A stretch of 46,890 nt of DNA from Elusimicrobiota bacterium (lineage in GTDB: Bacteria > Elusimicrobiota > Endomicrobiia > CG1-02-37-114 > JAHJSO01). A program made the translations under genes and the position numbers. Shown here one piece after another: positions 1-36,519 of this stretch. The DNA is taken from contig JBDRQF010000017.1 of the NCBI GenBank assembly GCA_043826435.1, positions 1 to 46,890 on the forward strand, read 5' to 3'. Each line of letters begins with the position of its first letter. The stretch's first letter is position 1. The notes under the pieces are model-generated. The model had not been told where the DNA came from and did not search any database. It saw only the letters and a list, made by a program, of their open reading frames with translations.

Positions 1-1073
1 AGCTTCATCCGCAGCCCAGACCCGTATATAATATGTCACACCATTTCGCAGACCTGTGAGAACCCGCCACTGACTCTGTGATGGCGTCGTGCTTGTCGGA
101 ATATTTATTTCATACTTGTTCTGGTAATCACCCCAGCCAGCGCCTGCCCAATCAACGCTATATGTTGCATACCTCACCTTGAACCACCCGCCATCTATAT
201 TCCCGCTCATTCCGTCATCACCGGGTGATGTCCAGGCAAGATTTATGTTGCCCTCCACTGCTCCTGTAAGCGCTGATAAATTCGTTATCGCTGATGGGGC
301 TATTTTATCCGTTTGTGCATAAGTTGTAGCTCCGTTAGATATACCTGACCAGTTCGGAACTTCATCCGCAGCCCAGACCCTTATATAATATGTCACACCT
401 GAACGCAGTCCTGTAAGTATCCGCCACTGACTCTGTGATGGTGTTGTGCTTGTCGGAATGTTTATTTCATACTTGTTCTGATAATCACCCCAGCCAGCGC
501 CTGCCCAATCAACGCTATATGTTGCATACCTCACCTTGAACCACCCGCCATCTATATTCCCGCTCATCCCGTCATCACCGGGTGATGTCCAACTCAGCCG
601 AACCTCGCCTTCTACTGTCCCCTGCGTCCCGCCTAAACTCGTTATCGCTGAAGGCGCTGTCATATCCATCTGGGCATAAGTCGTCGCTCCGTTAGATATT
701 CCTGACCAGTTCGGAACTTCATCCGCCGCCCAGACCCGTATATAATATGTAACTCCGCCACGCAGTCCTGTCAGTATTCGCCACTGACTCGCCGATGGCG
801 TTGTGCTTGTTGGAATATTTATCTCATACTTGTTCTGATAATCACCCCAGCCAGCACCTGCCCAATCAACGCTATATGTCGCATACCTCACCTTGAACCA
901 CCCGCCATCTATATTCCCGCTCATTCCGTCATCACCGGGTGATGTCCAACTCAGCCGAACCTCACCCTCCACTGCTCCTGTAAGCGCTGATAAATTCGTT
1001 ATCGCTGATGGTGCAACTATGTCCACCTGGGCATAAGTCGTCGCTCCGTTAGATATACCTGACCAGTTCGGAA
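1..1073. repeat. 357-bp tandem coding repeats, three near-identical units at 3-359, 360-716 and 717-1073. A diverged fourth unit starts at 1074. Each unit encodes a 119-aa FN3-type module at the 3' end of the giant gene.
   Basis: The string cttcatccgc(a/c)gcccagaccc recurs at 3, 360, 717 and 1074. The core from ccactgactc to caccgggtgatgtcca is nearly identical across units. The array probably continues past the window edge. Confidence 0.85.
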
Positions 1074-4000
1074 CTTCATCCGCTGTCCAGAGGCGAAAAT
1101 AATAGGTGGCCCCGCTTGTCAACCCGCCTATTACGTAGGTCTGTTTTGCTCCCGGTGCCACGTTGCTGGTTGAAATTGTCACCTGTGCTGAATTATATGA
1201 CCATGTTACGCCTGTCCAGGTGGAGTGCTGAATTTTGTACTGACCGCCTGAGGGCAGGTTGCCACTCATTCCGTCGTCGCCGGGTGATGTCCAACTCAGC
1301 CGAACCTCGCCACCCGTCGCTCCGGTTAATGCGGATAAATTTGTAACAGCGGACGGGGCAGTAGTATCGCCTGGTGGTGGCGCAGAGCCCTCTTTTGCCG
1401 GTGAAAAAACGGTGTTTGACCGGACAGACCAGTTTGGCACCTCATCGCGGGTCTTTATTGAAAGATAATAGGTAACCCCTGGTGTAAGAGGACCGATTGT
1501 CTTTGACTCTGTCTGACCGGCGGCTAATGGTGTCCATGTCTGGGACCACTCACCCGCCTGATTGAATAGTGTGTTGGAAGTAATGTTGTAAGTCGCATAT
1601 TTAAGTAAATAGGCAGCCGCAAGTCCGCTGTTGCCATCATCTCCCGGGGCTGTCCAGGAAATGGCTATTGTCCCCTCGGAACCGCCCCTGATTGCAGATA
1701 AATCCGCTACTGCTGCCGGCGGGGTTGTATCTCCTCCTGCACCGGGCCAACTTGGCGCCCAGGGCAAAATCACACGACTATTCCTTGTTGCCTCGTTATA
1801 GTAGAAATTCTGATTGACAGCATTAGTATAGTCCGCATCCGTCCATATTTCCAGCACTATTTTTGAACCCTCGGTAATAGCGCCGGCAGCACCGGCCGCT
1901 ATGGTATATGACCTTTCTGCTGCTGCTGTCCCGAGTTCAGCAGAGGCAGCGCTTATGCCTACTGAAATATCATAAGTATCACCGGGAGACCAGATATAAA
2001 CCTCCGCCTGATGGTTTGAATTTGATGTAGTATATGGTTCGTCTCCCCATGAGTAAATAGTCCATGTGCCGGAAGGCATTGCCTGTGCGGCAAGAGCAGG
2101 TGAAACAAAACTTCTCAAAGCAATTTTAGTCGCAACTACATTATTGCCTACTGTTATTATCGTGCTACCCTGACTAACCGCCATTGTTCTTCTCGCCCAG
2201 GATGATGTATCTGTATAACCACTGGATTGAGTTGTGTCAGGCGCTGGTTCTTCCGGCAGGCCATCCCTGAAATAAAGAGTATTAGAGGCAGATGTGGCAG
2301 CTGTCCAGTTGGTGTTTGCATTTGTCCATATAGGCGAGCGGTTGTCCGCCTCGTCAACCGCCCTTATTGCCCAGTAGTATATAACACCGGGCATAAGGTT
2401 CTGTATTACTTTGCTTTCTGCTGTGCCAGCAGAGGCAGTGGTCCATAATTGACCGTGTGTATCAGCGGCATTAAAGGCGGACTCAGAAAGTATGTTGCTG
2501 GTTGTGGAATAATGGACAAGATATTTCTGTGCAGTCCCTGTGTTCCCATCATCTCCAACCGCTATCCAACTCAATTGTATTGAGCCCGTATCTGAGCCGG
2601 GCAGGGCTGTTAAAGTATTAACCATTCCCGGCAGAATAGAATCCATGCCGGCATAGGTGGTGGCACAGTTAGAAAGAGGTCCGTAATTTGGTGTGGTGGG
2701 GTGTGCATCGTCGCCTGCTTTTATAGCAAAATAATATGTTGTGCCAGGGCTCATGTTTACAAGTGTTTTGTTTTCCGTCTGACCCGATGGAAGTGGCGAC
2801 CATGTCTGGCTGTATGCAGATGCATTGTTAAACTTCGTGTCCGTATCTATCGCAGACAAAGCATATTTTAGAACATACGATTTTGCTGTTCCTGAATTAC
2901 CGTCATCTCCTACTGCCGTCCATGTGAGGTTAACTTCCCCGCTGCCTGTGCCCGGACTGCCCGCAAGGTTGGCTATCTTTGCCGGCGCTGTGAAGTCCGT
3001 CTGTGTCTGGGCATAGACAGTGGCGCAGTTAGAAAGCGTTGCATAGTTGGGTTTTTCATCATATGCCTTTATAGCGAAATAATAGGTTGTGCCGGGGGTA
3101 AAATATCCGCCGCCGCCATAGGCAACATCTGATAGTGTTTTATCTTCCTGTTGATTTACCTGTGCAGGTGACCAGGTCTGAGTATATGTAGATGCGGACA
3201 CATGATTGAACAGAACTTCAGTGCTAATCGGGAATGTGGCGTATTTGAGAACATATCCGCAGTTTGGATAGACATCTAAATCAACCGAGTAGTCATCATC
3301 ACCCGGGGCTTTCCAGAAGAGCCGAATCTGGGCTATATCAGCACCTGGAATACCGCTTATGGTATTTATTTTGCCCGGTGGTATTACATCATCAGAGACA
3401 TATGGCATTGCAAACGCAATATTTGATATCTGCCCTAATTTAACAGGTGCTTCGCTATCATAGGCACACATACCATAATAATAGCCGACATTATTCGTTA
3501 CAGCGGTGTCCGTATAGGTATTGTTTACTTTGGATATGGTCTGAATCCATGTGTAGGGTCCTTCATAATATGTGCTTCTATAGAGACGATAACCAACAAG
3601 GTCGGGCTCTGTGTTGTCAGTCCACATAAGTTCAACCTTTGCATTCCTGCCTGTAGCATTTAAGTTCTGGACACGGGCAGGTGCTGCTATTGACTGCGGA
3701 TTTCTCAAAGTTGTGATCTCAAAATCCGTACCGTTGTTGTTGGTGTCCAGAGAATTGGAGCCAAGTGGTTTTCGTTCTATTGACTGGAGGGATTTCTTTG
3801 ACATCGTGGGTGCAGCAATCCCTTCCGGAGCAGACGCATTCCCCCAGCCAATCAAATCAATTGTCTTATTAGCGGCATTCACTAATTCCCAGTGACCGCC
3901 GTAGTCATTCGTCCCTTCAACATTGCTATATGTCATGTCAGGTGTTGGACCACAGAACGGCTCTACATATCCATTCCCGAGGTCTGCGTCACTGTAAGTG

Positions 4001-7000
4001 TTTCCAATGAGGTATCTCTGACCTGGTGAAAGTGTAATATCTGGTAAAGAAATACTGAATAACACCGTAGGAGGGGCGGCGGTTCTATAGTTAAGTTTAA
4101 GTCCATTGAGAAACAAATTGTTGTTTGTAACATTCATAAGTTCTATATATTCATTATTGCTGCCTTTGCCAGAACCATCAAAATTAAATCCCGAAGTGGT
4201 AATTTCAGAGATTAAAAGCCACCAGACAGTTCTGCCCGCAGGGCCGCCAACAGGCAGGTTGGTTGGCATCCCTCCTACATAACCCTTTTCATCAACTGCT
4301 TTTATAGCAAAGTAGTATGTAGTTCCTGGTTGAAAGCCCTCTAACAGGTATTGCTCTGTCTGGCCAACAAATTTTGGCGCCCAGAACTGTAAATATGAAG
4401 CAGCATTCTTGAAGTGGGCTTCTGTGGTTATCTGGTATGTCGCATATTTAACAAGATAACTCACACACCTGCTGCTGACGGTGGCGCCGGCAGTATATCC
4501 ATCATCAGAAACCGCTGTCCACCCGAGAGACAATTTACCGGCGGTATTTGAAGAAGTATATAACAGGTCCTGTATAGCGCCAGGCGGGGTGGTGTCGGGT
4601 GATTGTGCGGGGTATTTAGTGTTTCTCGGGCTGCGTCTTTTAATATAAACATCATTAAGATTATTATTGGTGTCGTGCCTGTGGCCAAAACCGGGCATCG
4701 CCTCGCCAGGTTTCCTTTCATTGGCATACGCTTCCATAGCAGGTGGTACCAAAGCGGGCTTTGTTTCTGCTTCGGTGGTACCCCTTGTGCCGTCATCCCA
4801 GCAAACTATATCATAATATATAGGCCCAGCGCCGCTGCTTCTGGGACGCAGCCCGCCTCCTGATGTTGAGAATGAATATGGCTGGGCAATTAGCCGGACA
4901 TAGTCGGGTGAGGTAAATGTGCCATCGTCCCCGTAACCACCACCAGTTCCGCCCATACCGGCTCCATATGCCTGTGCAGGCAAATCAGTTCCATAGGCAT
5001 AGTCGGTCGTCCATGCGATAAGAAAATAACTATATGCTTTAATGGTGCTGCCGGCTGGTAATCCGGTTGTGTTACCGTAAGTAGGAATATTGTCAGCCCA
5101 GGCCCCTGTGGCTGACTTATATTGGATATTCCATCCGCTTATGTCTATATCGGCATTGGTCGGGTTATATAATTCAACAAAATCATCTGCGTCCGCCGCA
5201 ACCTTTCCTGCTCCTTTTACCCAACCCATCCCGCTCTGGGCGACCTGACTGATTACAACGGTACTACCTGCCACCGGCTGCCATCTCCCCGCAGGGGCGG
5301 ATGGGCTGTTGGAGATTGTACTCTTGTTGCCGGAATCATCTACTGCAATAACATTGAAAAAAAATGTAGCGCCGGGCGTAAGCCGTGCCACATAGAGTTG
5401 TTCGTTTATTCCGGCTGGCATTGGCATCCAGTTATTAGGATAGTCGGTCGCTGAATTAAAGAGCGCCTGGGTGTTTATCGCCACATTGGTCCAGCGGACT
5501 ATATAATATGCAGCCCTGCCTTTATTGCCATCATCCCCCGGGGCTGCGAAATTAAGTAAAACAGCGCCATTAAAATATCCATCAGTGGCGGAAAGTGAAA
5601 CGGTTGCAGGCGGGGTAACATCCCCTGCATCTGTTGGCAGGAGTTGCGCATAGTCAGAGAAGCGGCTCTCATCATAGTCGGTATCATAAGCAGTTACCCT
5701 GTAATAATAGGTTACACCATTTGTAAGTCCTGTATCGCCATATGAGTTGGTTTTGGTTCGGGATATCTCCTTAAATAACATATTGGACCTTGTTGAACGA
5801 TATACAACATATCCCATAAGGCTTGACTCATCTGCATTTTGGGTCCAATCAAGCACTGCTGAACCATTCCCCGCTGCGCCGATAAGACCCTGTGGCTGTT
5901 TTGGTGACCGTAAACTCTGTGGCGTAGGCGGGGAAGTAGAGGTTGAAAAATCAAAATCAACAGAGTTGTTGTTCTGGTCCTGATTTGTCATTAACCAGGA
6001 CTTGCGGTAAATACTTCCCCAGGAAGGGATTGTCCGTGGATATACACTGCCTTCGGGTGTATCGCCATTCCCCCATGCAACTCTGTCAATTTCTGTACTA
6101 ACTGCATTCAATATACGGAAATTTCCACCAGTAAGAGGAACATCCACATCCGTTCCCCAGGTTAAATCAGGGGTGGCGCCGCTTGCAGGGGCAGTGTAGG
6201 TGCCGTTGAGTGGCTTTGATGAGTGGGCTATAAGATAATATTTTTTCGCATATAAGGTGGTACCTGCTGGCACTGCGGATATTTGTCCCCAGGCGCCACC
6301 AGATGCAATTTTGTATTCCAGTTTGTAATTTGAAATGTCTATTGAGTTGCCCGTCGGGTTATAAATTTCCACATACTGGTCTTTTGAACCGCCAGGACCA
6401 TCAGCGGATATTTCGGTAATCTTTACTGAGGCAGGCCTTATGCCGTTTGTTATCGCCTTCACTTCATTTCCCCATCTTCTTTCATCGGTGTTGCTGGTTT
6501 TTGCTGTAATTCGGTAATAATATGTTGTTCCGGGGTCAAGATTGGCAACCGTATAGCCGGGGGTGGATGAAACCCTTGTAACATATTTGTATATACCGGA
6601 TGTAGTGGGAGGGGGTGCGGCCCAGAGCGATTTGCCCCCTGCTGTTGAGTCACCACCCGTACCGGTCGCCCAGAAAACATCATAACCATTAACATTTTCC
6701 GTTGAGAAGTTCGCTGTCCAGTCCATCGCTATTTTGTCATAGTCCTGCGGCGTTCCTGCAAGGTTTTTTGGCGGGGATGGAGGCGGATAGGCGTTTGGCT
6801 TTTCTGTATCGCCAACCACATTTGTTGCGGTGTAAGTGGGGTTGTTGCCGCCACTACCATACACATTATCCCTGTACACTGCATAGTTGCCTTCTTTATC
6901 AGCAACGACGGTGACATTCCAGTCCAGGTCAACTCGGTAGTTTATTCCGCCTGCCACTCTTATTCTTTCCAGAACCTCCTGATAAGGATGCCAGTCACCG

Positions 7001-7836
7001 CGGCGGGGTGCAGGTGTTATTCCATATTTTGGTTTAAGAACTGCCAATAGTTCAGGGGAGTTTGAATGTTTTGAACCGTGGTGGTGTAGTTTGTATATAT
7101 CGGTCCCTTCCAACATTTCGGAATAATATTTAAGTAACTCTGCGTCAACCTTTGCCAATGCACCTGAATTTCCAGCGGTTGCATCACCACCAAAAAGAAA
7201 TGTGCTCTTGCCATACCTGAGATGTATAACCATTGATATATTATTGGGATTTGTCTCTCCCCATGGGTCGGCATTTGCTATCCATAAAACTTTTGCTGAT
7301 ACATTAGGGTCCCAACCAGGCCCTAAGTTTGTGCCAGGACCGCTCAGGACATCTCCCCTTACAGGATTATATAAGGCTCCTGCTGCGATAGATACCTGTG
7401 AGCCTATTGTTGAGCCACTTTTATAGACAGAACCTATTGTATATGTCCCATCCAGGTCACCTGCAAGTCCTGCGTTGTGGTCGCCATGCGGATGTGTTTC
7501 AACTACATAGTGCAAGGTACCGCTTGCACCTATTTTTGCTAACATCAACTCCATCAGAGGTCCACCGGTGGCGAGGCCCCCACCATCAATCAAAACACTT
7601 ATATCATCCCCTACGCGTGTACCTCCAATGGGTGTGTTAAGAATGCCGTCCGCTCCGGGAAGTTCTATGTATATAGAGTCATCAAACCTGTACAGAGTAT
7701 TGGGCGCCATGTCCCTTGTAGTGTGTATATAATAAACCCTCATGTATTTTGAATGAATAAGGGATGGGATAATAAAGGACTGAATAGCAAAAAACAACAC
7801 TAAAACGGGAATAGTTCGTATTTTTTTATTTATCAA
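1..7836 (-). CDS. Giant secreted multidomain surface protein; 5' part only, C-terminus lies beyond the window edge. It has a signal peptide and an N-terminal metallo-beta-lactamase-fold domain, then alternating fibronectin type III and lamin-tail (LTD) domains.
   Basis: Manual translation of the minus strand from TTG at 7836..7834 gives MINKKIRTIPVLVLFFAIQSFIIPSLIHS, a good signal peptide. An in-frame ATG lies at 7743. The frame stays open to base 1, so there is no stop in the window and it is absent from the ORF track. Every minus-strand ORF the track lists in 1-7800 is in a different frame. The translation shows MBL motifs (ETHPHGDHNAG, LHHHGSKHS), LTD motifs (DQYVEIYNPTGNSIDISNYKL, DDFVELYNPTNADIDISGWNIQY) and many FN3 signatures (LSWTAPGDDG, GTTYYFAIKA, YYIRVWAADE). 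Confidence 0.75.
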   Translation of the reverse strand, partial: MINKKIRTIPVLVLFFAIQSFIIPSLIHSKYMRVYYIHTTRDMAPNTLYRFDDSIYIELPGADGILNTPIGGTRVGDDISVLIDGGGLATGGPLMELMLAKIGASGTLHYVVETHPHGDHNAGLAGDLDGTYTIGSVYKSGSTIGSQVSIAAGALYNPVRGDVLSGPGTNLGPGWDPNVSAKVLWIANADPWGETNPNNISMVIHLRYGKSTFLFGGDATAGNSGALAKVDAELLKYYSEMLEGTDIYKLHHHGSKHSNSPELLAVLKPKYGITPAPRRGDWHPYQEVLERIRVAGGINYRVDLDWNVTVVADKEGNYAVYRDNVYGSGGNNPTYTATNVVGDTEKPNAYPPPSPPKNLAGTPQDYDKIAMDWTANFSTENVNGYDVFWATGTGGDSTAGGKSLWAAPPPTTSGIYKYVTRVSSTPGYTVANLDPGTTYYYRITAKTSNTDERRWGNEVKAITNGIRPASVKITEISADGPGGSKDQYVEIYNPTGNSIDISNYKLEYKIASGGAWGQISAVPAGTTLYAKKYYLIAHSSKPLNGTYTAPASGATPDLTWGTDVDVPLTGGNFRILNAVSTEIDRVAWGNGDTPEGSVYPRTIPSWGSIYRKSWLMTNQDQNNNSVDFDFSTSTSPPTPQSLRSPKQPQGLIGAAGNGSAVLDWTQNADESSLMGYVVYRSTRSNMLFKEISRTKTNSYGDTGLTNGVTYYYRVTAYDTDYDESRFSDYAQLLPTDAGDVTPPATVSLSATDGYFNGAVLLNFAAPGDDGNKGRAAYYIVRWTNVAINTQALFNSATDYPNNWMPMPAGINEQLYVARLTPGATFFFNVIAVDDSGNKSTISNSPSAPAGRWQPVAGSTVVISQVAQSGMGWVKGAGKVAADADDFVELYNPTNADIDISGWNIQYKSATGAWADNIPTYGNTTGLPAGSTIKAYSYFLIAWTTDYAYGTDLPAQAYGAGMGGTGGGYGDDGTFTSPDYVRLIAQPYSFSTSGGGLRPRSSGAGPIYYDIVCWDDGTRGTTEAETKPALVPPAMEAYANERKPGEAMPGFGHRHDTNNNLNDVYIKRRSPRNTKYPAQSPDTTPPGAIQDLLYTSSNTAGKLSLGWTAVSDDGYTAGATVSSRCVSYLVKYATYQITTEAHFKNAASYLQFWAPKFVGQTEQYLLEGFQPGTTYYFAIKAVDEKGYVGGMPTNLPVGGPAGRTVWWLLISEITTSGFNFDGSGKGSNNEYIELMNVTNNNLFLNGLKLNYRTAAPPTVLFSISLPDITLSPGQRYLIGNTYSDADLGNGYVEPFCGPTPDMTYSNVEGTNDYGGHWELVNAANKTIDLIGWGNASAPEGIAAPTMSKKSLQSIERKPLGSNSLDTNNNGTDFEITTLRNPQSIAAPARVQNLNATGRNAKVELMWTDNTEPDLVGYRLYRSTYYEGPYTWIQTISKVNNTYTDTAVTNNVGYYYGMCAYDSEAPVKLGQISNIAFAMPYVSDDVIPPGKINTISGIPGADIAQIRLFWKAPGDDDYSVDLDVYPNCGYVLKYATFPISTEVLFNHVSASTYTQTWSPAQVNQQEDKTLSDVAYGGGGYFTPGTTYYFAIKAYDEKPNYATLSNCATVYAQTQTDFTAPAKIANLAGSPGTGSGEVNLTWTAVGDDGNSGTAKSYVLKYALSAIDTDTKFNNASAYSQTWSPLPSGQTENKTLVNMSPGTTYYFAIKAGDDAHPTTPNYGPLSNCATTYAGMDSILPGMVNTLTALPGSDTGSIQLSWIAVGDDGNTGTAQKYLVHYSTTSNILSESAFNAADTHGQLWTTASAGTAESKVIQNLMPGVIYYWAIRAVDEADNRSPIWTNANTNWTAATSASNTLYFRDGLPEEPAPDTTQSSGYTDTSSWARRTMAVSQGSTIITVGNNVVATKIALRSFVSPALAAQAMPSGTWTIYSWGDEPYTTSNSNHQAEVYIWSPGDTYDISVGISAASAELGTAAAERSYTIAAGAAGAITEGSKIVLEIWTDADYTNAVNQNFYYNEATRNSRVILPWAPSWPGAGGDTTPPAAVADLSAIRGGSEGTIAISWTAPGDDGNSGLAAAYLLKYATYNITSNTLFNQAGEWSQTWTPLAAGQTESKTIGPLTPGVTYYLSIKTRDEVPNWSVRSNTVFSPAKEGSAPPPGDTTAPSAVTNLSALTGATGGEVRLSWTSPGDDGMSGNLPSGGQYKIQHSTWTGVTWSYNSAQVTISTSNVAPGAKQTYVIGGLTSGATYYFRLWTADEVPNWSGISNGATTYAQVDIVAPSAITNLSALTGAVEGEVRLSWTSPGDDGMSGNIDGGWFKVRYATYSVDWAGAGWGDYQNKYEINIPTSTTPSASQWRILTGLRGGVTYYIRVWAADEVPNWSGISNGATTYAQMDMTAPSAITSLGGTQGTVEGEVRLSWTSPGDDGMSGNIDGGWFKVRYATYSVDWAGAGWGDYQNKYEINIPTSTTPSQSQWRILTGLRSGVTYYIRVWAADEVPNWSGISNGATTYAQTDKIAPSAITNLSALTGAVEGNINLAWTSPGDDGMSGNIDGGWFKVRYATYSVDWAGAGWGDYQNKYEINIPTSTTPSQSQWRVLTGLRNGVTYYIRVWAADEA

Positions 7837-8660
7837 TATGGTCTACCAAAAAACCTTTTTCGGACCTGATGGTCTGTTTCGCCTGTGTGCTCCCTTATTG
7901 CTCTGACAAGGGCGGCGATAACAGTTGGGTCTTTCTCTATCCTTAAGGCATTCTCCAGTGTTTCTTTTGATTGTTTTGTTTTTATGTCCGCTAATTGAAT
8001 TGCAGCGGTTCGTCGGATAAAAGGGTCAGCGTCTTTAAGATAGAAAATGACTGTATCAAAGCCCTCTTTAACATTTAATTTTGCAAGCGCCTGTGCGGCG
8101 TATAATTTTAGGCGGGTCACTTTTTCTGTTCTCACTACCCGGGTTAAAAGCGGGATCGCCTCTTTTGCCTCAAGGTAACACAAAACATTCAGTGCAAGTT
8201 CCCTTATTTCCGTTTCAGAATCATTCATCACCGGCTCAAGGACAGGAATTATGGATAGGTCTCTCACCCTCTTTTCATTCCCGGGTGCATGCGCTGCTGA
8301 AAGGGCGAGGACAATGGGCAGGCGGGTATTATAATTGGAAGTATAAAGCGACTCAATAAGTTCCGCTCTTGCGTCTGAATGCCTTTCTGCGATACTGCGA
8401 AGTACCTCATAAAGCGAAAAGCCCATTTCATCGCCTGCCCTTGCAATGTTGCCGTACCACACCCTCCAGTCAATTATTTCAAGGGCGGAAATAACCTCGG
8501 GCAGTGCGCTTTTACCTTCAGAAATTAGTTGGGACATAAGTTGCGGAGGGATTGAGTCCTTGCGGGTGTACATATCCAGCCGATTTGACGCGGCGGTTAA
8601 ATTAGAAACAAAAAAACAAAACACCGACAAAGAAACGGTGAAGAAAATAAACTTTCTCAT
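7833..8660 (-). CDS. Secreted or periplasmic HEAT-repeat (PBS-lyase-like) protein.
   Basis: ORF 7833..8702. Start moved to the ATG at 8660 (MRKFIFFTVSLSVFCFF signal peptide, preceded by GGTGGA), because a TTGACA-17-TAAAAT promoter lies inside the longer ORF version. HEAT-like repeats are visible: ETEIRELALNVL, DPFIRRTAAIQLADI, LYAAQALAKL. The TGA stop overlaps the TTG start of the giant gene within ATTGA. Confidence 0.65.
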   Translation of the reverse strand: MRKFIFFTVSLSVFCFFVSNLTAASNRLDMYTRKDSIPPQLMSQLISEGKSALPEVISALEIIDWRVWYGNIARAGDEMGFSLYEVLRSIAERHSDARAELIESLYTSNYNTRLPIVLALSAAHAPGNEKRVRDLSIIPVLEPVMNDSETEIRELALNVLCYLEAKEAIPLLTRVVRTEKVTRLKLYAAQALAKLNVKEGFDTVIFYLKDADPFIRRTAAIQLADIKTKQSKETLENALRIEKDPTVIAALVRAIREHTGETDHQVRKRFFGRPY

Positions 8661-8673
8661 GGAACGTCCACCC

Positions 8674-8702
8674 ATTTTACCATAATATATTTTTTTTGTC
8701 AA
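8674..8702 (-). promoter_or_regulatory. Sigma70-type promoter, TTGACA (8702..8697) - 17 nt - TAAAAT (8679..8674).
   Basis: Exact consensus -35 with a 17-nt spacer and a near-consensus -10. The ATG at 8660 with a GGTGGA Shine-Dalgarno follows. Confidence 0.5.
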
Positions 8703-8827
8703 GTAGTCGCCCGAAAATTTTTGAACTGAAAATTTTCACGCCCGGCTTTTCGCCCCGCTATTATTATACCTTATAACGGGTAAAAACAAGGTTAATATCG
8801 GGTAAATTTTAGGTAAATTCTTTTCTT

Positions 8828-11809
8828 CTACTTCTTTCTTATAAAGTCGGATGCTTTTCCGGGTGAGTCCATAAACCACAGGTCATACTGTCCTTTCAGC
8901 ATCTGCGGGGTATCAACGACAATTTTATCCATCTCCGGGAGCGCCTTTTCAATGGTCTCTAAATAAAGCCGTGCACGCGTTGCGCCGCGGCCCAGCCAGT
9001 ATGAGCGGACAACCTTTTCAAACCTATCGGACTCTCCCACCGCCTTTTGTATCCTTTCAACGCCGTAACCGTGCGCCTCGTTCACCATTTCTGCAAATCT
9101 CCCTTCCGACCATGGGATTGCCTCGTTAAAATATCCGCGTGATTCATTTATCAGCCGGTCCATATCCTCCCGGGCGCTAAATACATCCCTGAAGGCGGGC
9201 ACAACTTCAACCGGCGGATGGATGTCTTCAAGCAGGACATTAAGGACTTCAACCCCGACCTCGTAAGCATCAAGAAAGCCCTGTATTTTTCCTTTGATGA
9301 ATCCCTGCAGGCGGCTCCTTTCAATGGTAAGGATATCGTCCAGAGGAATCCCCGCAATGGTCTCCCGTGTGACGGATTCGCTTAACCTATGGATTATCTC
9401 CACCGGCTTGTTGGTATTAAAAACGAAATCATAGGGCGTCCTGACCCGCCACTGGACAACCAGGTTAACGTCCAGCAGATTTTCATCGCCCGTTACAAGG
9501 ATGGCTTCCTCAAGTTTTTTTTCATACATACCGTAAATATGCAAACTTTCCCACAGGCGGACCCTTTCCGCTATTTCAGGCGTTATATCCCGGACGCCTG
9601 CCTTTGACCTGAACCCTATTTCCATACGCCTGACACCTTTCGTATTCACCTTTATTATTTTCTCAAATGGGTAAGGCAGGCAATACTGCAATCCCTGACT
9701 GACAACCGGTTTAACGACCTTGTTAAACCGCAGTTTAATGCCCTGCTCGTCAATGTTTATTATGTAAAAACCCGAAAAGACATATAAAACAGCAACTGCG
9801 ATAACGCACCATTTAATGATTATTTTCCTGTTGGTCTTAATAAACTGCGCATATTTTCCCCATTCAGGCATGATATTCCATCCGGTTAATTCCCAGAATT
9901 TGCGTTTAAGTTGTTTAAACTTCTCAATGAGCAACCTTGTAAGACGGCGGTAATTCAGCAACCTTGAAGAGTTCAGGGTTACAATGACGGTTGCAACCTC
10001 GTGCAGGAGGACGCCTGTCAGCATGTTCAGGGCGCCCATCGTCGCGGCAATTATCATGCCAAAAGAAGATATAAACGCTATCCAGAGATTCTGGTGTATT
10101 ATCCTTCTGGTCTTCCTGCCTATAACCACGACATCCGATATTCTTGTAAGGTTGTCGCTCATAAGGGCGACGTCCGATGCGACCAACGTAATGTCCGTAG
10201 CCGAAACGCCCATCGCTATACCTACGTTTGCAGTTGCAAGGGCGGGCCCGTCGTTTATACCGTCACCGACCATCGCTACCCTGTGGTTTTCGCTTATAAT
10301 CTGCCGGATTTTTGCAACCTTGTCTTCAGGCATCTGGTTGGCGATGACTTCGTCAATACCCACTTCCTTCGCCACGGCGGATGCAACGTACTGGTTGTCG
10401 CCCGTTGAGAGTATGAACCTTGAAATACCTAATTGTTTAAGGGCGGCTATCGCCTGCCTTGATGTCTCGCGGACAATGTCCGCAAGGGTTATGATACCGC
10501 ATATTTTGTCATCATGGGCTATGACCAGGGCTGTTTCGCCCATTTTTTCCCTGCTGTCAACATAATCTTCAACGTTAGGGGGGACAGGGACGCAGCAGTC
10601 CTTCATTATTCTTCTGTTCCCCACAATAACCCTTGCCCCGCCTGAAGTTATTACAACCCCCATGCCTTTCCTGATTTCAACCGTATCGGGTTTCTTAACC
10701 GGGACGTCTTTTTCTTTTGCGTAAAGGACTATCGCCTGGCCCAACGGGTGTTCGGACAAACTCTCCGCTGTGGCGGCAAACGAGAGCAATTCCTGCTCTG
10801 AGTGCGAACAGAACCTCTTTATTGCAATTAGTTTTAGTTTACCTCTGGTGAGCGTGCCTGTTTTATCAAATATAAACGTATCCAGAATGCCTACGGATTC
10901 AAGGGCTTCGCCGCCGCGGATAAGTATGCCCTGTTTCGCTGCACTGGTAATGGCGGCAATTACCGCACTCGGAGTGCCTATGACAAAGGCGCAGGGACAA
11001 ACGATAATAAGAAGGGTTATCGCCCGGATTATATCGGAGGTTATAAGATATACAATGCCTACAAAGATAAGCGTAATTGGTATAATCCATATCGCGTACC
11101 TGTCAACAAGCCGGGCCGTGGGCGCCTTTTTCTCAAGCGCCTCCTCGGTCATTTTCTTGATTTTGACAATCGTGCTCGCCTCACCTACATTGGTGGCTTT
11201 TATCTCAATCGTTCCCGTTTCAACTATCGTCCCTGAGATAACGGTGTCGTCCAGGGTTTTATCAACCGGGACAGATTCCCCTGTAATCTGAGCCTGATTC
11301 ACGACTGCCGAACCATAGACAATTACGCCGTCAACGGATATCCACTCTCCTGATCGGACAATAACAATATCGCCTTCCCGCACATCAGAAAGTTTCACCT
11401 CAACGATGTCCGTCCCCTTACGCAGGGAAACCCTGTCCGGCAACAAACTCAGGAGTTTTTCAAGTTCCCTGCGGGCTTTCTCCACCGTGTAATCCTCCAT
11501 AAAATCGCCCAGCAGGTGAATAAACAGGACGGTGGCGGACTCCATCGGGTAACCGACTATTACGGCGCCGATTGCAGCCATACTCACAAGCGTATCAATG
11601 TTAAGGGATTTTGAAAGGAGGTCGCGGATTGTAATCGTAAGGACGGGTATTATGCCAAGCGCAAAACCCGCATACGCAAATATTTTTGACAGTCCTGTCC
11701 GGCCTGTGAGGAAAAGTATCCATGACGCCAGGACCAAAACAAACAGGACGATAGCGAGTATCTTTTTGAGTTTTTGTTTTATCGGAACTGATATTTTTAT
11801 GGGTGACAT
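8828..11809 (-). CDS. P1B-type heavy-metal P-type ATPase fused at its C-terminus to an HflK-like SPFH/band-7 domain.
   Basis: ATPase motifs TGES, CPC (IVCPCAFVIGTP), DKTGTLT and GDGINDGPAL. No N-terminal metal-binding domain. After the last ATPase transmembrane helix there is another helix, then a prohibitin-type domain (YIINIDEQGIKLRFNKVV...) like the HflK encoded downstream. The ORF track starts at a TTG at 11848 inside a GC hairpin. I chose ATG 11809 (MSPIKISVP); the start remains uncertain. Confidence 0.7.
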   Translation of the reverse strand: MSPIKISVPIKQKLKKILAIVLFVLVLASWILFLTGRTGLSKIFAYAGFALGIIPVLTITIRDLLSKSLNIDTLVSMAAIGAVIVGYPMESATVLFIHLLGDFMEDYTVEKARRELEKLLSLLPDRVSLRKGTDIVEVKLSDVREGDIVIVRSGEWISVDGVIVYGSAVVNQAQITGESVPVDKTLDDTVISGTIVETGTIEIKATNVGEASTIVKIKKMTEEALEKKAPTARLVDRYAIWIIPITLIFVGIVYLITSDIIRAITLLIIVCPCAFVIGTPSAVIAAITSAAKQGILIRGGEALESVGILDTFIFDKTGTLTRGKLKLIAIKRFCSHSEQELLSFAATAESLSEHPLGQAIVLYAKEKDVPVKKPDTVEIRKGMGVVITSGGARVIVGNRRIMKDCCVPVPPNVEDYVDSREKMGETALVIAHDDKICGIITLADIVRETSRQAIAALKQLGISRFILSTGDNQYVASAVAKEVGIDEVIANQMPEDKVAKIRQIISENHRVAMVGDGINDGPALATANVGIAMGVSATDITLVASDVALMSDNLTRISDVVVIGRKTRRIIHQNLWIAFISSFGMIIAATMGALNMLTGVLLHEVATVIVTLNSSRLLNYRRLTRLLIEKFKQLKRKFWELTGWNIMPEWGKYAQFIKTNRKIIIKWCVIAVAVLYVFSGFYIINIDEQGIKLRFNKVVKPVVSQGLQYCLPYPFEKIIKVNTKGVRRMEIGFRSKAGVRDITPEIAERVRLWESLHIYGMYEKKLEEAILVTGDENLLDVNLVVQWRVRTPYDFVFNTNKPVEIIHRLSESVTRETIAGIPLDDILTIERSRLQGFIKGKIQGFLDAYEVGVEVLNVLLEDIHPPVEVVPAFRDVFSAREDMDRLINESRGYFNEAIPWSEGRFAEMVNEAHGYGVERIQKAVGESDRFEKVVRSYWLGRGATRARLYLETIEKALPEMDKIVVDTPQMLKGQYDLWFMDSPGKASDFIRKK

Positions 11810-11820
11810 TTTAATAGTGT

Positions 11821-11848
11821 CATTGCGAGGGGCGAAGCCCCGAAGCAA
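11821..11848. repeat. GC-rich hairpin motif, copy 1. On the minus strand it reads ATTGCTTCGGGGCTTCGCCCCTCGCAAT, an ATTGC/GCAAT outer stem plus a GGGGC-TTC-GCCCC inner stem. It lies 12 nt upstream of the ATPase ATG.
   Basis: A second copy sits at 41547-41576. The motif is palindromic, so it would fold in transcripts from either strand. Confidence 0.5.
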
Positions 11849-11900
11849 TCCCCCTGTCTTATGCGTGCAACATCATACACATATTCGCACGTCCCTTATG

Positions 11901-12746
11901 CTAATTATTGCACCGTTCTTTCAGATTGTCTATTAACTGTCCTATTGTTAACGGGATTTTATTCCCGTCACCCTGAATTATTTTCAAGTCCATCATTTTC
12001 CAGAATAATTCAACCACAACGGGCGGGCTGAAATTTTTATTGTTCAGGACGTTCCTGTCCTTAAAAAAATCGGCGGGGGCAGAACTTGCCTTTACTCTGC
12101 CGGTATCCAGAAATACAAGTTTATCAACAAAACCAGCCAGACGGTTCAAATTAAACGTGGTTAGAACGATCGTTAGTTTTTCTTCTTCATTCAGTTTTTT
12201 CAGAAAATCCAGCAACCTTGTCTCCGAATCAGGGTCAAGCGGACTTGTCGGTTCGTCAAGCAGAATAATCTCGGGTCTCATTGCAAGGACGCCTGCAATC
12301 GCCACCTTCTGCTTCTGACCGTAAGAAAGGGTATGTACGGGAGAGTCCCTGTTTTCCGTCATGCCAATAATTTCAAGCGACTCATCAACCCTTTCCCTGA
12401 CCTTATCTTCCTGTAAACCTAAGTTCATCGGGCCAAAAGCAATGTCCTGAAATACGTTTGCTGAAAACAACTGGTCGTCCGGGTTCTGGAATACAATGCC
12501 TATCTTTGAAAACCTCTCTTTTTCATCTATACCCAGAATGTCCTTACCTTCAAGCAGTACCTTGCCGGACGACGGTTTATAGAGGCCGCACAGCGTGTTC
12601 AGCAGGGTGGTTTTGCCGCTCCCATTGGGGCCGTATATACAAACGACCTCGCCTTTTTCAATATTTAATGAAATATCGTTAAGGACAAACGGGCCAGGAG
12701 CCCCTTCATACTTGTAACACAGATTTTCCGTTCTTAATACTTCCAT
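11901..12746 (-). CDS. ECF/cobalt-type ABC transporter ATP-binding protein (EcfA/CbiO-like).
   Basis: Walker A GPNGSGKTTLL, signature LSYGQKQKV, Walker B ILLDEPTS. Length and C-terminus fit the CbiO/EcfA family. Confidence 0.8.
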   Translation of the reverse strand: MEVLRTENLCYKYEGAPGPFVLNDISLNIEKGEVVCIYGPNGSGKTTLLNTLCGLYKPSSGKVLLEGKDILGIDEKERFSKIGIVFQNPDDQLFSANVFQDIAFGPMNLGLQEDKVRERVDESLEIIGMTENRDSPVHTLSYGQKQKVAIAGVLAMRPEIILLDEPTSPLDPDSETRLLDFLKKLNEEEKLTIVLTTFNLNRLAGFVDKLVFLDTGRVKASSAPADFFKDRNVLNNKNFSPPVVVELFWKMMDLKIIQGDGNKIPLTIGQLIDNLKERCNN

Positions 12747-12805
12747 ATATTATTCATTATATTATTCATTCTAAAAATCGGGTTTTTTAGAACCATACTC
12801 ATCAC

Positions 12806-13567
12806 TCATTTCAGCAGGAACAATACAAAAGCAATCGCCACTGACACAAGAATGAATCTGAAATCATAGTCAGTAAGCCGCTTCGGCGCCAGAAAGTACA
12901 TATCCCCCCTGTAACCCCTGGCGCTCAATGCGCGCTGAATCCTTTTACCCCTGTCATAAGACCTTAAAACAAGCATCCCGCCCAGTACTCCCAGCGATTT
13001 TATTTTCCTGCTGAAAGAAGCATACCCCAAACGGATCCGCTGAGCGAACATTATTGCCGACGCCTCCTCAAAAAGGACAAATATCTGCCTGTACATAAAG
13101 GTGGTGATTTCGGTGAATACCCTCGGCAAACCGAAATTTTTTAATGTCTGCATGGACTCCTCAAACGGGATTGAAAATGACATCGTTATAATCAACGAGA
13201 CGCCGCCGATAATCCTGAAAAATATACCTATGCCTTTCCGTAGCCCCCCGCTGTAAGCGACGACGTTGAACACCGTGAAAACCGGCTCGCCATCACGGAG
13301 CAAAAACATCTGCGTTACGATGACGAAAAAACCGATAACCGCAGGAAAAATCATTCTGTAAACGAATGCCCGGAACGGAACTTTTAATGAAAACATAATT
13401 GCGCCCGACAGGGTAAGGATTAACAGCGGCACAATGTCCCGCGTTGAAATCAGGTTAAGAAAGAGCAAAACAATCGCAAAAACAAATTTTACCCTGGTAT
13501 CAATCCTTGAAAACCAGTTATCCCTGTTACACGCGCTCCCGAAAATGTGTCCTGCAAGATGGGTCAT
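12806..13567 (-). CDS. ECF transporter transmembrane T component (EcfT/CbiQ-like).
   Basis: Polytopic membrane protein of about 250 aa directly upstream of the EcfA-like gene. No S component or second ATPase is present in the window. Confidence 0.7.
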   Translation of the reverse strand: MTHLAGHIFGSACNRDNWFSRIDTRVKFVFAIVLLFLNLISTRDIVPLLILTLSGAIMFSLKVPFRAFVYRMIFPAVIGFFVIVTQMFLLRDGEPVFTVFNVVAYSGGLRKGIGIFFRIIGGVSLIITMSFSIPFEESMQTLKNFGLPRVFTEITTFMYRQIFVLFEEASAIMFAQRIRLGYASFSRKIKSLGVLGGMLVLRSYDRGKRIQRALSARGYRGDMYFLAPKRLTDYDFRFILVSVAIAFVLFLLK

Positions 13568-13568
13568 T

Positions 13569-14579
13569 TTATTTTATTACGGGCAAGTTTGAAGACTCAT
13601 CGTCAAACATCAGGAATTTCAGGTCAAGCCCGCGCCGTCCGCTTAAAGGGTCAACGATATAGAGTTTTATGTTCGGCATCAACTCTTCCATTGTCTCAAG
13701 ATAAAGCCGTGTTTTTGTAGTGTAGGGCGACCTGCTGTATTCGCTCCTGACGGCATAAAAACGGCTGCTGTCTCCCATTGCCATGTTTATTCTTTCCACA
13801 TGGTACGTTTTCGCCCCTTCAACAAGGACCTGGGCGTTACCGTATGCTATCGGAATTGCCATGTTTGCATACCCCTCGGCCTCGTTGATAAAACGAACCC
13901 TGTCCGCCTGGGCGCTTATAACTTCATTAAAGGAATCCAGTACCTCCTGCGGTGGAATTACCGTTTCCAGCGTAACCGAACGAATCTGGATGCCCGCATT
14001 GTACCTACTAATGGTTTCCTGGGAAACGCTTTTGACCATTTCCTGCACTCTGATTTTTTCAACAGTGAGGACGCTGTCAACGTCCATCCCTGCAACAACC
14101 TTGCTCATCGCCGCCCCCGCTACGTAGCCAAGCAGTCCCCGGGGGTCTTCGCAATTAAAAAGATAAGATGCCGGCTCCAGTATTGTGTATTGTACCATGA
14201 AACTTACGTGGATGAGGTTTTCGTCTCCTGTAAGTATGTCCTCTATTTTTTTGAAATCTTCCTTTTTTAACGGGTCTTTGTAATACCCGACAATTATCCT
14301 CTTTATCTCCTGGACAGGGACCTTGTTCAGGCGTTCAACAGGCCAGGGCAGGCGGTAATGTATGCCGGGCATTATTTTGTCCCTGGCAACCCTGCCGAAC
14401 CTTCTCACAACGCCTTGTTCCTCCGTTTGCACAATGTATAAGCCCGATATTATGTAAAGAAAAACGAGCCCGTATATCGCAAGGAGCATCGGGCTTAATT
14501 GCAACCTATAGATAAACCTTTTAAAATTTTGAATAAAATTGCTGATAAAGACAGACGAAAATTCTTTTATCTTTTTCAT
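13569..14579 (-). CDS. hflK: HflK-like SPFH (band-7/prohibitin) membrane protein.
   Basis: N-terminal transmembrane helix, then an SPFH domain (YIVQTEEQGVVRRFGRVARDKIMPGIHYRLPWPVE) and a coiled C-terminus typical of HflK. Confidence 0.75.
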   Translation of the reverse strand: MKKIKEFSSVFISNFIQNFKRFIYRLQLSPMLLAIYGLVFLYIISGLYIVQTEEQGVVRRFGRVARDKIMPGIHYRLPWPVERLNKVPVQEIKRIIVGYYKDPLKKEDFKKIEDILTGDENLIHVSFMVQYTILEPASYLFNCEDPRGLLGYVAGAAMSKVVAGMDVDSVLTVEKIRVQEMVKSVSQETISRYNAGIQIRSVTLETVIPPQEVLDSFNEVISAQADRVRFINEAEGYANMAIPIAYGNAQVLVEGAKTYHVERINMAMGDSSRFYAVRSEYSRSPYTTKTRLYLETMEELMPNIKLYIVDPLSGRRGLDLKFLMFDDESSNLPVIK

Positions 14580-14632
14580 AAACTTTCAGTGCAGTATTTA
14601 TTCCCCCGTCCGACCCCGCCCTTGTGCCCCTC

Positions 14633-15694: not shown

Positions 15695-15774
15695 TCGGGT
15701 AGTCCTCCTTGTGTGCAACTACTCACTGAAATCTGTCATTGCAACCGTTGTCACTGCAACAATTGTCGTTTGGA

Positions 15775-18139: not shown

Positions 18140-18147
18140 GTGATGAT

Positions 18148-30565: not shown

Positions 30566-30597
30566 CCGGAGCACCTGAAGTGCTCCCGTGTTTTTTT
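30566..30597 (+). terminator. Rho-independent-terminator-like hairpin (GGAGCAC-ctgaa-GTGCTCC followed by T7), on the plus strand opposite the operon.
   Basis: A 7-bp perfect GC-rich stem plus a T-run. No plus-strand gene lies upstream, so it may stop antisense transcription or act as an RNA structure within the minus-strand mRNA. Confidence 0.3.
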
Positions 30598-36477: not shown

Positions 36478-36494
36478 GCCACCTTTGGGATCAT

Positions 36495-36519
36495 GGGTCA
36501 GGTTTTGCATCATTTGACA
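36495..36519 (+). repeat. REP-like repeat, copy E (gggtcaggttttgcatcatttgaca).
   Basis: Sits at the 5' end of the GT39-like gene. Confidence 0.65.

What the first reader, a model, noticed from the sequence alone, without database searches (positions are those of the whole stretch)
1..7836. Giant secreted MBL/lamin-tail/FN3 protein missed by ORF calling, ending in near-identical 357-bp tandem repeats
The largest gene in the window does not appear in the ORF track because its stop lies outside the window. The open frame covers more than 2600 codons. It has a signal peptide, an N-terminal metallo-beta-lactamase-fold domain with an intact HxHxDH motif, at least two lamin-tail domains and twelve or more FN3 domains. 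The last three FN3 modules are encoded by 357-bp DNA repeats whose central 230 bp or so are almost identical. This implies recent duplication or ongoing gene conversion and makes the gene a hotspot for repeat-number variation. The TTG start overlaps the TGA stop of the upstream HEAT-repeat gene within ATTGA, suggesting translational coupling. Three GT39/TMTC-like O-glycosyltransferase paralogues are encoded nearby and could glycosylate this Ser/Thr-rich protein.
Basis: partly seen in the sequence, partly recalled or inferred. Interest (0 to 1): 0.6.

Follow-up and report, generated by a model that had tools for sequence, protein, structure and literature searches.

The report
Giant secreted ComEC-type hydrolase on FN3 stalk
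This is a real but 3'-truncated gene for a very large exported protein of an uncultured Elusimicrobiota bacterium: a probable DNA-cutting enzyme head followed by binding and spacer modules, an unusual combination of familiar parts that NCBI has already annotated.

Summary
The observation largely holds. The minus strand is open for 2614 codons (7842->1) and runs off the contig end. From the TTG at 7836 the protein has, in order:
- a signal peptide;
- an MBL-fold domain with HPHGDH;
- three lamin-tail domains;
- 13 FN3-like modules;
- one unannotated jelly-roll module.
It ends in a 357-bp tandem array.

Four points need correcting.
- The gene was not missed. NCBI annotates it as "lamin tail domain-containing protein, partial", but with a start 42 codons too short, which removes the signal peptide.
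- The repeats are not near-identical. They are 86-88% identical overall and 91-94% in the core, with dS of 0.25-0.47. Core conservation looks like purifying selection, and synonymous sites show no conversion mosaic.
- The head is specifically ComEC-type. Every residue shown to be needed for Mn2+-dependent DNase activity in the Moorella ComEC domain is conserved.
- The GT-C genes lie 11-37 kb away and are not detectable paralogues of one another.

Best reading: an exported, probably surface-held phosphodiesterase, most likely an extracellular DNase. The LTD and jelly-roll modules would bind, and the FN3 modules would act as spacers. MBL+LTD pairing is already described, so this is a new member of a known kind. 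The 3' end could not be recovered.

The parts
1..7836 (-). 3'-truncated CDS of the giant protein: 2612 codons from the TTG at 7836, with no stop inside the contig
   Evidence: Open frame. NCBI partial protein P0001 is 100% identical. Independent assemblies L001 and L002 agree.
7750..7836 (-). Sec-type signal peptide, aa 1-29 (MINKKIRTIPVLVLFFAIQSFIIPSLIHS). The TTG start overlaps the TGA of the HEAT gene.
   Evidence: Sequence. Aligned signal peptides in homologues. An 18-nt in-frame indel sits here in sister strain L002. Gene calls for L001 and L002 use this start.
6832..7749 (-). ComEC-type metallo-beta-lactamase-fold phosphodiesterase head, aa ~30-335
   Evidence: Lactamase_B 29.6 bits. PDB sequence search: ComEC MBL domain 9ic4_A E=5e-8, 30bt_A E=5e-5. 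TIGR00361 ComEC_Rec2 E=1.9e-9, Avs1a E=2.5e-8. AF2 pLDDT 80, and Foldseek top hit 9ic4 at E=1e-16, TMt 0.77.
7477..7494 (-). HxHxDH metal-binding motif H115-P-H117-G-D119-H120. The further conserved residues D218, H252/H253 and S255 lie downstream.
   Evidence: Invariant or near-invariant columns in the 24-sequence alignment. They map onto H598/D600/D602/H603, D700, H725 and S728 of the Moorella ComEC domain through the alignment. Mutagenesis of those residues is reported in PMC12455585.
6451..6780 (-). FN3 module 1 (short canonical type), aa 353-462
   Evidence: Best Pfam fn3 stretch is aa 354-459. Self-HMM envelope is 353-466.
5917..6450 (-). Lamin-tail domain 1, aa 463-640
   Evidence: PF00932 at 57.5 bits against a cut-off of 34.3. 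Weak match to the LTD of extracellular exonuclease ExeM.
5281..5916 (-). FN3 modules 2 (short) and 3 (PGDDG type), aa 641-852
   Evidence: Self-HMM domains 2 and 3. fn3 hits.
4603..5280 (-). Lamin-tail domain 2, which carries an insertion, aa 853-1078
   Evidence: PF00932 at 41.8 bits.
4231..4602 (-). FN3 module 4 (PGDDG type), aa 1079-1202
   Evidence: Self-HMM at 153 bits.
3682..4230 (-). Lamin-tail domain 3 (divergent), aa 1203-1385
   Evidence: PF00932 at 30.1 bits, E=6.8e-7, below the 34.3 cut-off.
2287..3681 (-). FN3 modules 5-8, aa 1386-1850
   Evidence: Self-HMM domains 5-8. NCBIfam matches the FN3 region of TIGR00868 (hCaCC) at aa 1611-1712.
1729..2286 (-). Unannotated beta-jelly-roll module, aa 1851-2036
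1021..1728 (-). FN3 modules 9-10 (PGDDG type), aa 2037-2272. Module 10 is a diverged fourth relative of the tandem units.
   Evidence: Self-HMM. Repeat family D3 has a fourth copy at 78% identity.
1..1020 (-). Three tandem 357-bp units, each encoding a 119-aa FN3 module: R1 at 658-1014, R2 at 301-657, and R3 at 1-300 (cut by the contig end)
   Evidence: TRF finds period 357 and 3.1 copies. Pairwise identity and dN/dS. Runs test.
7833..8660 (-). Upstream secreted HEAT-repeat protein (275 aa from ATG 8660). Its TGA overlaps the giant gene's TTG.
   Evidence: HEAT_2 at E=2e-16. The exact protein is found in the Logan contig with this start. The same arrangement occurs in L002.

Best explanation
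This is a genuine, intact but 3'-truncated gene of an uncultured Elusimicrobiota bacterium, encoding an exported modular protein of at least 2612 aa.

Proposed mechanism:
1. A Sec signal peptide exports the protein.
2. The N-terminal head is a binuclear-metal phosphodiesterase of the ComEC beta-lactamase-like type. It most probably cuts extracellular DNA by the two-metal, probably Mn2+-dependent, mechanism shown for ComEC's nuclease domain.
3. The three lamin-tail domains and the jelly-roll module act as binding or positioning modules.
4. The 13 FN3 modules form a long spacer that holds the head away from the cell if, as in related Elusimicrobia proteins, the missing C-terminus is a sorting or anchoring domain.
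5. The terminal 357-bp units are ordinary domain-length duplications of the stalk, kept similar mainly by purifying selection.

Shown here: the open frame, the start, the domain order, ComEC-type fold and catalytic residues, and the repeat statistics.
Inferred, not shown: DNase activity, surface anchoring, and the role of the LTD and FN3 modules.
For: Gene and start:
- The open frame has been assembled independently.
- Signal peptides align in homologues, and sister strain L002 has an in-frame 18-nt indel in this region.

ComEC-type head:
- ComEC MBL domains are the best sequence hits in PDB: 9ic4_A at E=5e-8 and 30bt_A at E=5e-5.
- They are also the best in NCBIfam: ComEC_Rec2 at 1.9e-9, followed by the nuclease Avs1a at 2.5e-8.
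- The AF2 model's best structural match is 9ic4, at E=1e-16 and TMt 0.77.
- H115, H117, D119, H120, D218, H252/253 and S255 are conserved. They align to the residues whose mutation abolishes or reduces the Mn2+-dependent DNase activity of the Moorella ComEC domain (PMC12455585).

LTD and nuclease association:
- LTDs are described as partners of MBL, EEP and calcineurin-like hydrolases.
- Deleting the LTD of the extracellular nuclease ExeM slows DNA degradation in vitro (PMC6085458).
- MBL+LTD proteins have been linked to eDNA in haloarchaea (PMC5118699).
- An LTD-bearing nuclease lies in the DNA-degradation loci of marine Izemoplasmatales (PMC8289736).

Stalk and anchoring:
- Related Elusimicrobia giants built from the same FN3 type end in T9SS-like CTDs or in another conserved C-terminal domain.
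Against: - No activity data exist for this protein or for any close relative.
- The second-best structural match is Pce/CbpE, a surface phosphorylcholine esterase. The fold therefore does not fix the substrate.
- The protein has no OB fold or other recognised DNA-binding domain.
- ExeM lacking its LTD still clears DNA in vivo, and the role of LTDs in general is unresolved.
- No neighbouring gene encodes nucleoside or nucleotide uptake or catabolism.
- The C-terminus, and so the anchoring, is unknown.
- Whole-protein Lactamase_B is marginal, at 22.2 against a cut-off of 22.7.
Confidence: 0.55

Rival explanations
1. The head is a Pce-like or otherwise non-nuclease phosphodiesterase or hydrolase. 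It would act on phosphodiester-linked envelope or environmental polymers, such as phosphocholine- or phosphoglycerol-decorated glycans. The jelly-roll and LTD modules would then be glycan-binding modules.
For: - Pce/CbpE (2bib, 1wra) is the second-best structural match, at E=6e-11 to 1e-9. It is also reported as the closest structural homologue of the ComEC domain itself (PMC12455585).
- The jelly-roll module resembles CocE/NonD C-terminal and CBM folds.
- The contig is rich in glycan-synthesis genes.
Against: - Sequence-level best hits are all nucleases: ComEC and Avs1a.
- The HHGS serine, which ComEC is proposed to use for substrate coordination, is conserved.
- Identity to Pce is only 13-14%.
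- The glycan genes are at least 11 kb away and not in the same transcription unit.
Confidence: 0.2
2. The protein is chiefly a structural surface fibre or adhesin. The FN3, LTD and jelly-roll array would mediate attachment to particles or other cells, and the MBL head would be accessory or catalytically irrelevant.
For: - About 85% of the protein is beta-sandwich repeats.
- The same FN3 type builds many other Elusimicrobia and Zixibacteria surface proteins with unrelated heads.
- Domain-length tandem repeats are typical of adhesin-like genes.
Against: - All catalytic residues of the MBL head are intact and invariant across homologues. That argues for a selected enzymatic function.
- Short homologues consisting of little more than the secreted MBL head exist: P0018 and P0021-P0030.
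Confidence: 0.15
3. The region is a pseudogene or an assembly artefact, either a chimeric join or a collapsed repeat.
For: - The contig ends inside the repeat array.
- Both independent contigs also break inside this gene.
Against: - There is no stop or frameshift in 2614 codons.
- An independent assembly is 99.99% identical over the first 1680 codons.
- dN is much lower than dS between repeat units.
- The units differ at 12-14% of bases, so they are distinct copies and not a collapsed consensus.
Confidence: 0.03

Closest known systems
ComEC/Rec2 C-terminal beta-lactamase-like nuclease domain (Moorella glycerini BLACT, PDB 9ic4; full-length ComEC 30bt)
   Same: - It is the best sequence and structure match.
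- It has the same alpha-beta/beta-alpha fold.
- Equivalents are conserved for the HxHxDH motif (HxDxDH in Moorella), the bridging Asp, and the HHGS His and Ser, all needed for Mn2+-dependent DNase activity.
- ComEC's own nuclease domain is also extracytoplasmic (PMC8579336 abstract).
   Different: - There is no competence channel domain and no OB fold.
- The MBL domain is N-terminal and follows a cleavable signal peptide, whereas in ComEC it is C-terminal to a membrane channel.
- Identity is about 21%.
- TIGR00361 scores 36 bits against a cut-off of 190, so this protein is not a ComEC.
Bacterial and archaeal LTD-bearing extracellular hydrolases (ExeM of Shewanella; Hlac_1867 and Halobacterium 'ComA' with MBL+LTD; LTD nuclease of Izemoplasmatales)
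   Same: - These are exported hydrolases that combine a phosphoesterase or nuclease domain with lamin-tail domains.
- The MBL+LTD pairing is explicitly described.
   Different: - Those proteins are about 0.9-1 kb in aa length or smaller, with one LTD.
- ExeM uses an EEP catalytic domain, not an MBL domain.
- None is reported with three LTDs interleaved with 13 FN3 modules and a jelly-roll module.
Pce/CbpE teichoic-acid phosphorylcholine esterase of Streptococcus pneumoniae (PDB 2bib, 1wra)
   Same: It is a surface-located MBL-fold binuclear phosphodiesterase with a modular cell-surface attachment region, and the second-best structural match.
   Different: - Identity is 13-14% and there is no significant sequence-level hit.
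- Pce is anchored by choline-binding repeats, which are absent here.
FN3-array surface proteins of Elusimicrobia and Zixibacteria (loci L003-L053; P0076-P0195)
   Same: - They share the long 'W-x-x-PGDDG ... Y-Y-F/I-x-(I/V/L)-x-A-x-D-E' FN3 module type at 33-60% identity.
- Their genes carry domain-length tandem DNA repeats.
- Many end in T9SS-like C-terminal domains.
   Different: None of the 47 FN3-relative loci (L003-L015, L020-L053) carries the MBL head, an LTD or the jelly-roll module.

Membership tests
Metallo-beta-lactamase superfamily (Pfam PF00753) | HxHxDH motif plus downstream Asp and His metal ligands | tested here: met
   H115-P-H117-G-D119-H120, D218 and H252/H253 are present, and invariant or near-invariant among 24 homologues.
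Metallo-beta-lactamase superfamily (Pfam PF00753) | Profile score above the gathering threshold, and an alpha-beta/beta-alpha sandwich fold | tested here: met
   The isolated domain scores 29.6 bits against 22.7. Within the whole protein it scores 22.2, just below the threshold. The AF2 model matches 62 PDB chains at E<=1e-3, and the chains listed are MBL-fold proteins.
ComEC beta-lactamase-like nuclease domain | Closest relatives by sequence and structure are ComEC MBL domains, and the residues required for nuclease activity are conserved | tested here: met
   9ic4_A at E=5e-8. Foldseek at E=1e-16. Residue mapping to H598, D600, D602, H603, D700, H725 and S728.
ComEC beta-lactamase-like nuclease domain | Metal-dependent DNase activity | not testable with these tools
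   Needs biochemistry on the recombinant head domain.
ComEC/Rec2 competence protein (TIGR00361) | Polytopic competence channel domain (PF03772), with or without an OB fold, and a full-length model score of at least 190 bits | tested here: not met
   It scores 36.2 bits, and the match covers only model positions 560-651. There is no Competence domain hit. The protein is not a ComEC.
Lamin tail domain (PF00932) | Profile match above the gathering threshold of 34.3 bits | tested here: met
   LTD1 scores 57.5 and LTD2 scores 41.8. LTD3 scores 30.1 (E=6.8e-7), below the cut-off, so it is a probable divergent copy.
Fibronectin type III (PF00041) | Repeated profile matches of ~90-130 aa beta-sandwich modules | tested here: met
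   The whole protein scores 151.8 bits. A profile built from the protein's own modules finds 13 domains. Single PGDDG-type modules score 16-24 bits against Pfam fn3, below the cut-off of 25 when taken alone.
T9SS or other C-terminal-sorted surface cargo | C-terminal sorting domain (Por_Secre_tail, CHU_C or FlgD_ig) | not testable with these tools
   The 3' end is missing and was not recovered in any collection. Relatives L004 and L006 have such tails.
   PMT_2 hits 34855-36513 at E=6e-11 and 44568-46835 at E=3e-6, the latter with TPR. ORF 19269-20978 has TM segments and TPR but no PMT_2 hit. PF13231 (PMT_2) is named for the dolichyl-phosphate-mannose protein mannosyltransferases but, from my own knowledge of Pfam, also covers ArnT-like GT-C enzymes. 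GT39 is therefore not established.

The most novel reading that the evidence does not exclude
The ComEC nuclease module has an independent life as the head of a very long cell-surface 'DNA-harvesting' fibre. From the usual ~3.5-4 nm per FN3 domain (general knowledge), the 13 FN3 modules plus 3 LTDs would span roughly 50 nm or more. Such a protein would capture DNA through its LTD and jelly-roll modules and degrade it at a distance from the cell, and the number of stalk repeats would tune its reach. This domain combination was found only in this species among the collections searched.
Probability: 0.3. Interest if true: 0.45.

Novelty: new member of a known kind. Interest (0 to 1): 0.25.

Why it matters
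If the head is an active DNase, this protein would be a free-standing, secreted version of the ComEC nuclease module. It could help explain how uncultured Elusimicrobiota obtain phosphorus and nucleotides from environmental DNA. It would also give a natural context for testing what bacterial lamin-tail domains do, which is still unresolved.

In practical terms:
- The NCBI gene model should be extended 42 codons upstream so that it includes the signal peptide.
- The gene is an example of how repeat-rich surface-protein genes break short-read assemblies.

Otherwise the architecture is assembled from well-known modules and does not open a new category.

Tried and rejected
1. Recovering the 3' end. 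Five routes failed.
- An exact look-up of the neighbouring HEAT protein gave only a 9-kb Logan contig, which breaks earlier in the gene.
- The sister-strain contig L002 stops after 207 codons.
- A GTDB genome scan with the repeat region found only relatives at 33-53% identity.
- A protein search with the repeat region found nothing above 48% identity.
- In JGI metagenomes, an exact 44-mer gave 0 hits and a protein-pattern scan gave at most 60% identity.

2. Conserved synteny with the HEAT gene. It is present only in the same species. Distant MBL homologues P0018 and P0020 sit in unrelated contexts.

3. Donors for the two block substitutions in R2 and R3. None exists elsewhere in the window.

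4. Gene conversion in the repeat core. Synonymous informative sites show no clustering (P=0.63), so I rejected this as the explanation for core similarity.

5. PDB sequence relatives of the FN3 repeat unit and of LTD1. Nothing was significant.

6. tRNA and Rfam scans of the window. Nothing was found.

7. Pseudogene or collapsed-assembly readings. I rejected these on the continuous frame, the independent assembly, and dN being much lower than dS.


Full report
**Observation**

The minus strand of window 1-7842 is one uninterrupted frame of 2614 codons that runs off the start of the window. The mechanical ORF list omits it only because it has no stop in the window.

The window is a whole 46,890-bp contig of an NCBI MAG assigned to Elusimicrobiota. 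NCBI already annotates the gene as "MAG: lamin tail domain-containing protein, partial" (P0001, 2570 aa, 100% identical). It was therefore not missed by annotation.

Two independent assemblies support the sequence:
- A Logan contig from SRR26275510 (L001) is 99.99% identical over window 2795-11846.
- A contig of GCA_018830385.1 (L002) is 99.0% identical over window 7232-12335.

Both of those contigs, like the window, break inside this gene.

**Start codon**

NCBI starts the protein at ATG 7710, giving MAPNTLY.... The TTG at 7836 is the better start, for four reasons:
- It is the only start codon upstream of the hydrophobic stretch.
- It yields MINKKIRTIPVLVLFFAIQSFIIPSLIHS, with the charged-then-hydrophobic layout of a Sec signal and no lipobox.
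- Homologues at 29-40% identity carry canonical signal peptides at the same aligned position. These are followed by the conserved first strand (Y/L)xVYYI, which the NCBI start would delete.
- Gene calls on L001 and L002 use the TTG. L002 differs here by an in-frame 18-nt indel.

TTG (7836-7834) overlaps the TGA (7835-7833) of a secreted HEAT-repeat gene. No clear Shine-Dalgarno precedes it, so termination-reinitiation coupling is plausible, but it is only inferred. The HEAT pairing recurs only in the same species. Distant homologues sit in unrelated contexts.

**Architecture**

| Element | Residues |
|---|---|
| Signal peptide | 1-29 |
| MBL head | ~30-335 |
| FN3-1 | 353-462 |
| LTD1 | 463-640 |
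| FN3-2, FN3-3 | 641-852 |
| LTD2 | 853-1078 |
| FN3-4 | 1079-1202 |
| LTD3 | 1203-1385 |
| FN3-5 to FN3-8 | 1386-1850 |
| Unannotated module | 1851-2036 |
| FN3-9, FN3-10 | 2037-2272 |
| Three tandem 119-aa FN3 units (last one cut by the contig end) | 2273-2612 |

- LTD scores are 57.5, 41.8 and 30.1 bits against a cut-off of 34.3.
- A profile built from the protein's own modules finds 13 FN3-like domains. Three are short and canonical. Ten are long, with a W-x-x-PGDDG motif, and also match Pur_ac_phosph_N, NDNF and the FN3 region of TIGR00868 (hCaCC).
- The unannotated module has no Pfam or NCBIfam hit, and only 41 relatives among 1.84 billion representative proteins.
- Those relatives include secreted proteins with multihaem cytochrome or T9SS-tail domains.
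- The protein is acidic, has 7 Cys, and is 18.7% Ser+Thr.

**The head**

The MBL domain is specifically of the ComEC type.
- The best PDB sequence hits are the ComEC beta-lactamase-like domains 9ic4_A (E=5e-8) and 30bt_A.
- The best NCBIfam hits are ComEC_Rec2 (1.9e-9) and the nuclease Avs1a.
- The AF2 model (pLDDT 80) matches 9ic4 best (Foldseek E=1e-16, TMt 0.77). Pce/CbpE phosphorylcholine esterase comes second.
- Residues H115, H117, D119, H120, D218, H252/H253 and S255 are invariant or nearly so among 24 homologues.
- They align with H598, D600, D602, H603, D700, H725 and S728 of the Moorella domain. That domain is a two-Mn2+ DNase, and alanine substitution at each of these positions abolished or reduced nuclease activity in vitro (PMC12455585).

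The protein is not a ComEC. It has no channel domain and no OB fold, and TIGR00361 scores 36 bits against a cut-off of 190.

**Lamin-tail domains**

- LTDs are described as partners of MBL, synaptojanin-like and calcineurin-like hydrolases.
- Deleting the LTD of the extracellular nuclease ExeM slows DNA degradation in vitro but not in plate assays (PMC6085458).
- MBL+LTD proteins have been noted in haloarchaea in the context of eDNA (PMC5118699).
- An LTD-bearing nuclease lies in DNA-degradation loci of marine Izemoplasmatales (PMC8289736).

The head-plus-LTD pairing is therefore a known kind.

**Repeats**

TRF finds a 357-bp period with 3.1 copies at window 3-1091.

| Measure | Value |
|---|---|
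| Overall unit identity | 85.7-88.3% |
| 232-nt core identity | 91-94% |
| Longest perfect runs | 44-86 nt |
| dS, whole units | 0.39-0.47 |
| dS, core | 0.25-0.40 |
| dN, core | 0.02-0.03 |

- The sister strain differs from the window by only about 1%. The duplications are therefore old relative to strain divergence, and the core is conserved mainly at the protein level.
- Informative codons are clustered (runs test P=0.004). Two short, mostly non-synonymous blocks drive this: codons 7-16 in R2 and codons 18-22 in R3. Synonymous sites show no mosaic (P=0.63).
- No donor for either block exists in the window.
- Related Elusimicrobia surface-protein genes commonly carry domain-length tandem repeats, with periods of 201-612 bp and 71-81% match. 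The phenomenon is ordinary for this class.
- Repeat-number variation is possible but untested.

**Relatives and the missing end**

- Apart from the same-species fragments, the closest proteins share only 33-37% identity over the head. The FN3 modules reach up to 60% identity in other proteins.
- Of the 47 loci fetched as relatives of the FN3 region (L003-L015, L020-L053), none carries the MBL, LTD or jelly-roll module. The combination is so far unique.
- Other large MBL-headed secreted proteins do exist, such as P0007 and P0010.
- Related giants end either in T9SS-like tails or in an uncharacterised conserved C-terminal domain.
- The true 3' end of this gene was not recoverable.

**Neighbourhood**

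- Immediately upstream lie the HEAT gene and a P1B heavy-metal ATPase fused to an HflK-like SPFH domain. Beyond them are ECF transporter components and two more SPFH genes.
- Two of them hit PMT_2. The third does not. They match one another only in the TPR regions.
- Nothing links them to the giant protein.

**Verdict**

It is best explained as an exported ComEC-type phosphodiesterase, most likely a DNase, carried on an LTD/FN3 stalk. It is a new member of a known kind. The claims of near-identity, recent conversion and a glycosylation link are overstated or unsupported.

Noticed in passing
window 8828-11848 (-): A P1B heavy-metal P-type ATPase (TIGR01525, 540 bits) is fused to a C-terminal HflK-like SPFH/Band-7 domain (TIGR01933, 195 bits). 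It lies directly upstream of the HEAT and giant gene pair, and the arrangement is conserved in sister strain L002. A metal exporter next to a secreted binuclear metalloenzyme is suggestive but untested.
   Followed up: partly
window 11901-15718 (-): ECF-type ABC ATPase and CbiQ-like T component, followed by two further SPFH/Band-7 genes. Counting the ATPase fusion, that makes three SPFH domains within 7 kb.
   Followed up: no
[not shown]
   Followed up: partly
window 38656-39606 (-): REP-associated tyrosine transposase (NF047646, 83 bits; Y1_Tnp) fused to a DnaA C-terminal helix-turn-helix domain.
   Followed up: no
window 30596-31334 (-): An overlapping pair of nucleotidyltransferase (MNT-type) and HEPN genes. 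The pairing looks like a HEPN/MNT toxin-antitoxin module (my reading of the two Pfam hits), set within the glycan-synthesis cluster.
   Followed up: no
window 15906-19077 (-): A radical SAM/SPASM enzyme, a NosD-like beta-helix protein, and a 439-aa ORF with no family hit. This may be a peptide-maturation or surface-polymer cassette.
   Followed up: no
window 41589-44423 (-): An unusual three-part fusion of an MFS-like membrane domain, a spermine/spermidine-synthase domain and TPR repeats (944 aa).
   Followed up: no
L007, L008, L009, L012, L014 (C-terminal ~100 aa of the long ORFs): Giant FN3-rich proteins of other Elusimicrobia share a conserved C-terminal domain (...R-x-(I/L)-W-F-x-(I/L)-x-T-P...) with no Pfam hit. 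It may be a lineage-specific sorting or anchoring domain. L003, L004 and L006 instead end in a different tail; Pfam finds CHU_C/Por_Secre_tail (T9SS-type) hits for L004 and L006 but none for L003.
   Followed up: partly
window 7710-7836 (-): The NCBI gene model for this protein starts 42 codons too far downstream. It removes the signal peptide and the first conserved beta-strand of the MBL fold.
   Followed up: yes
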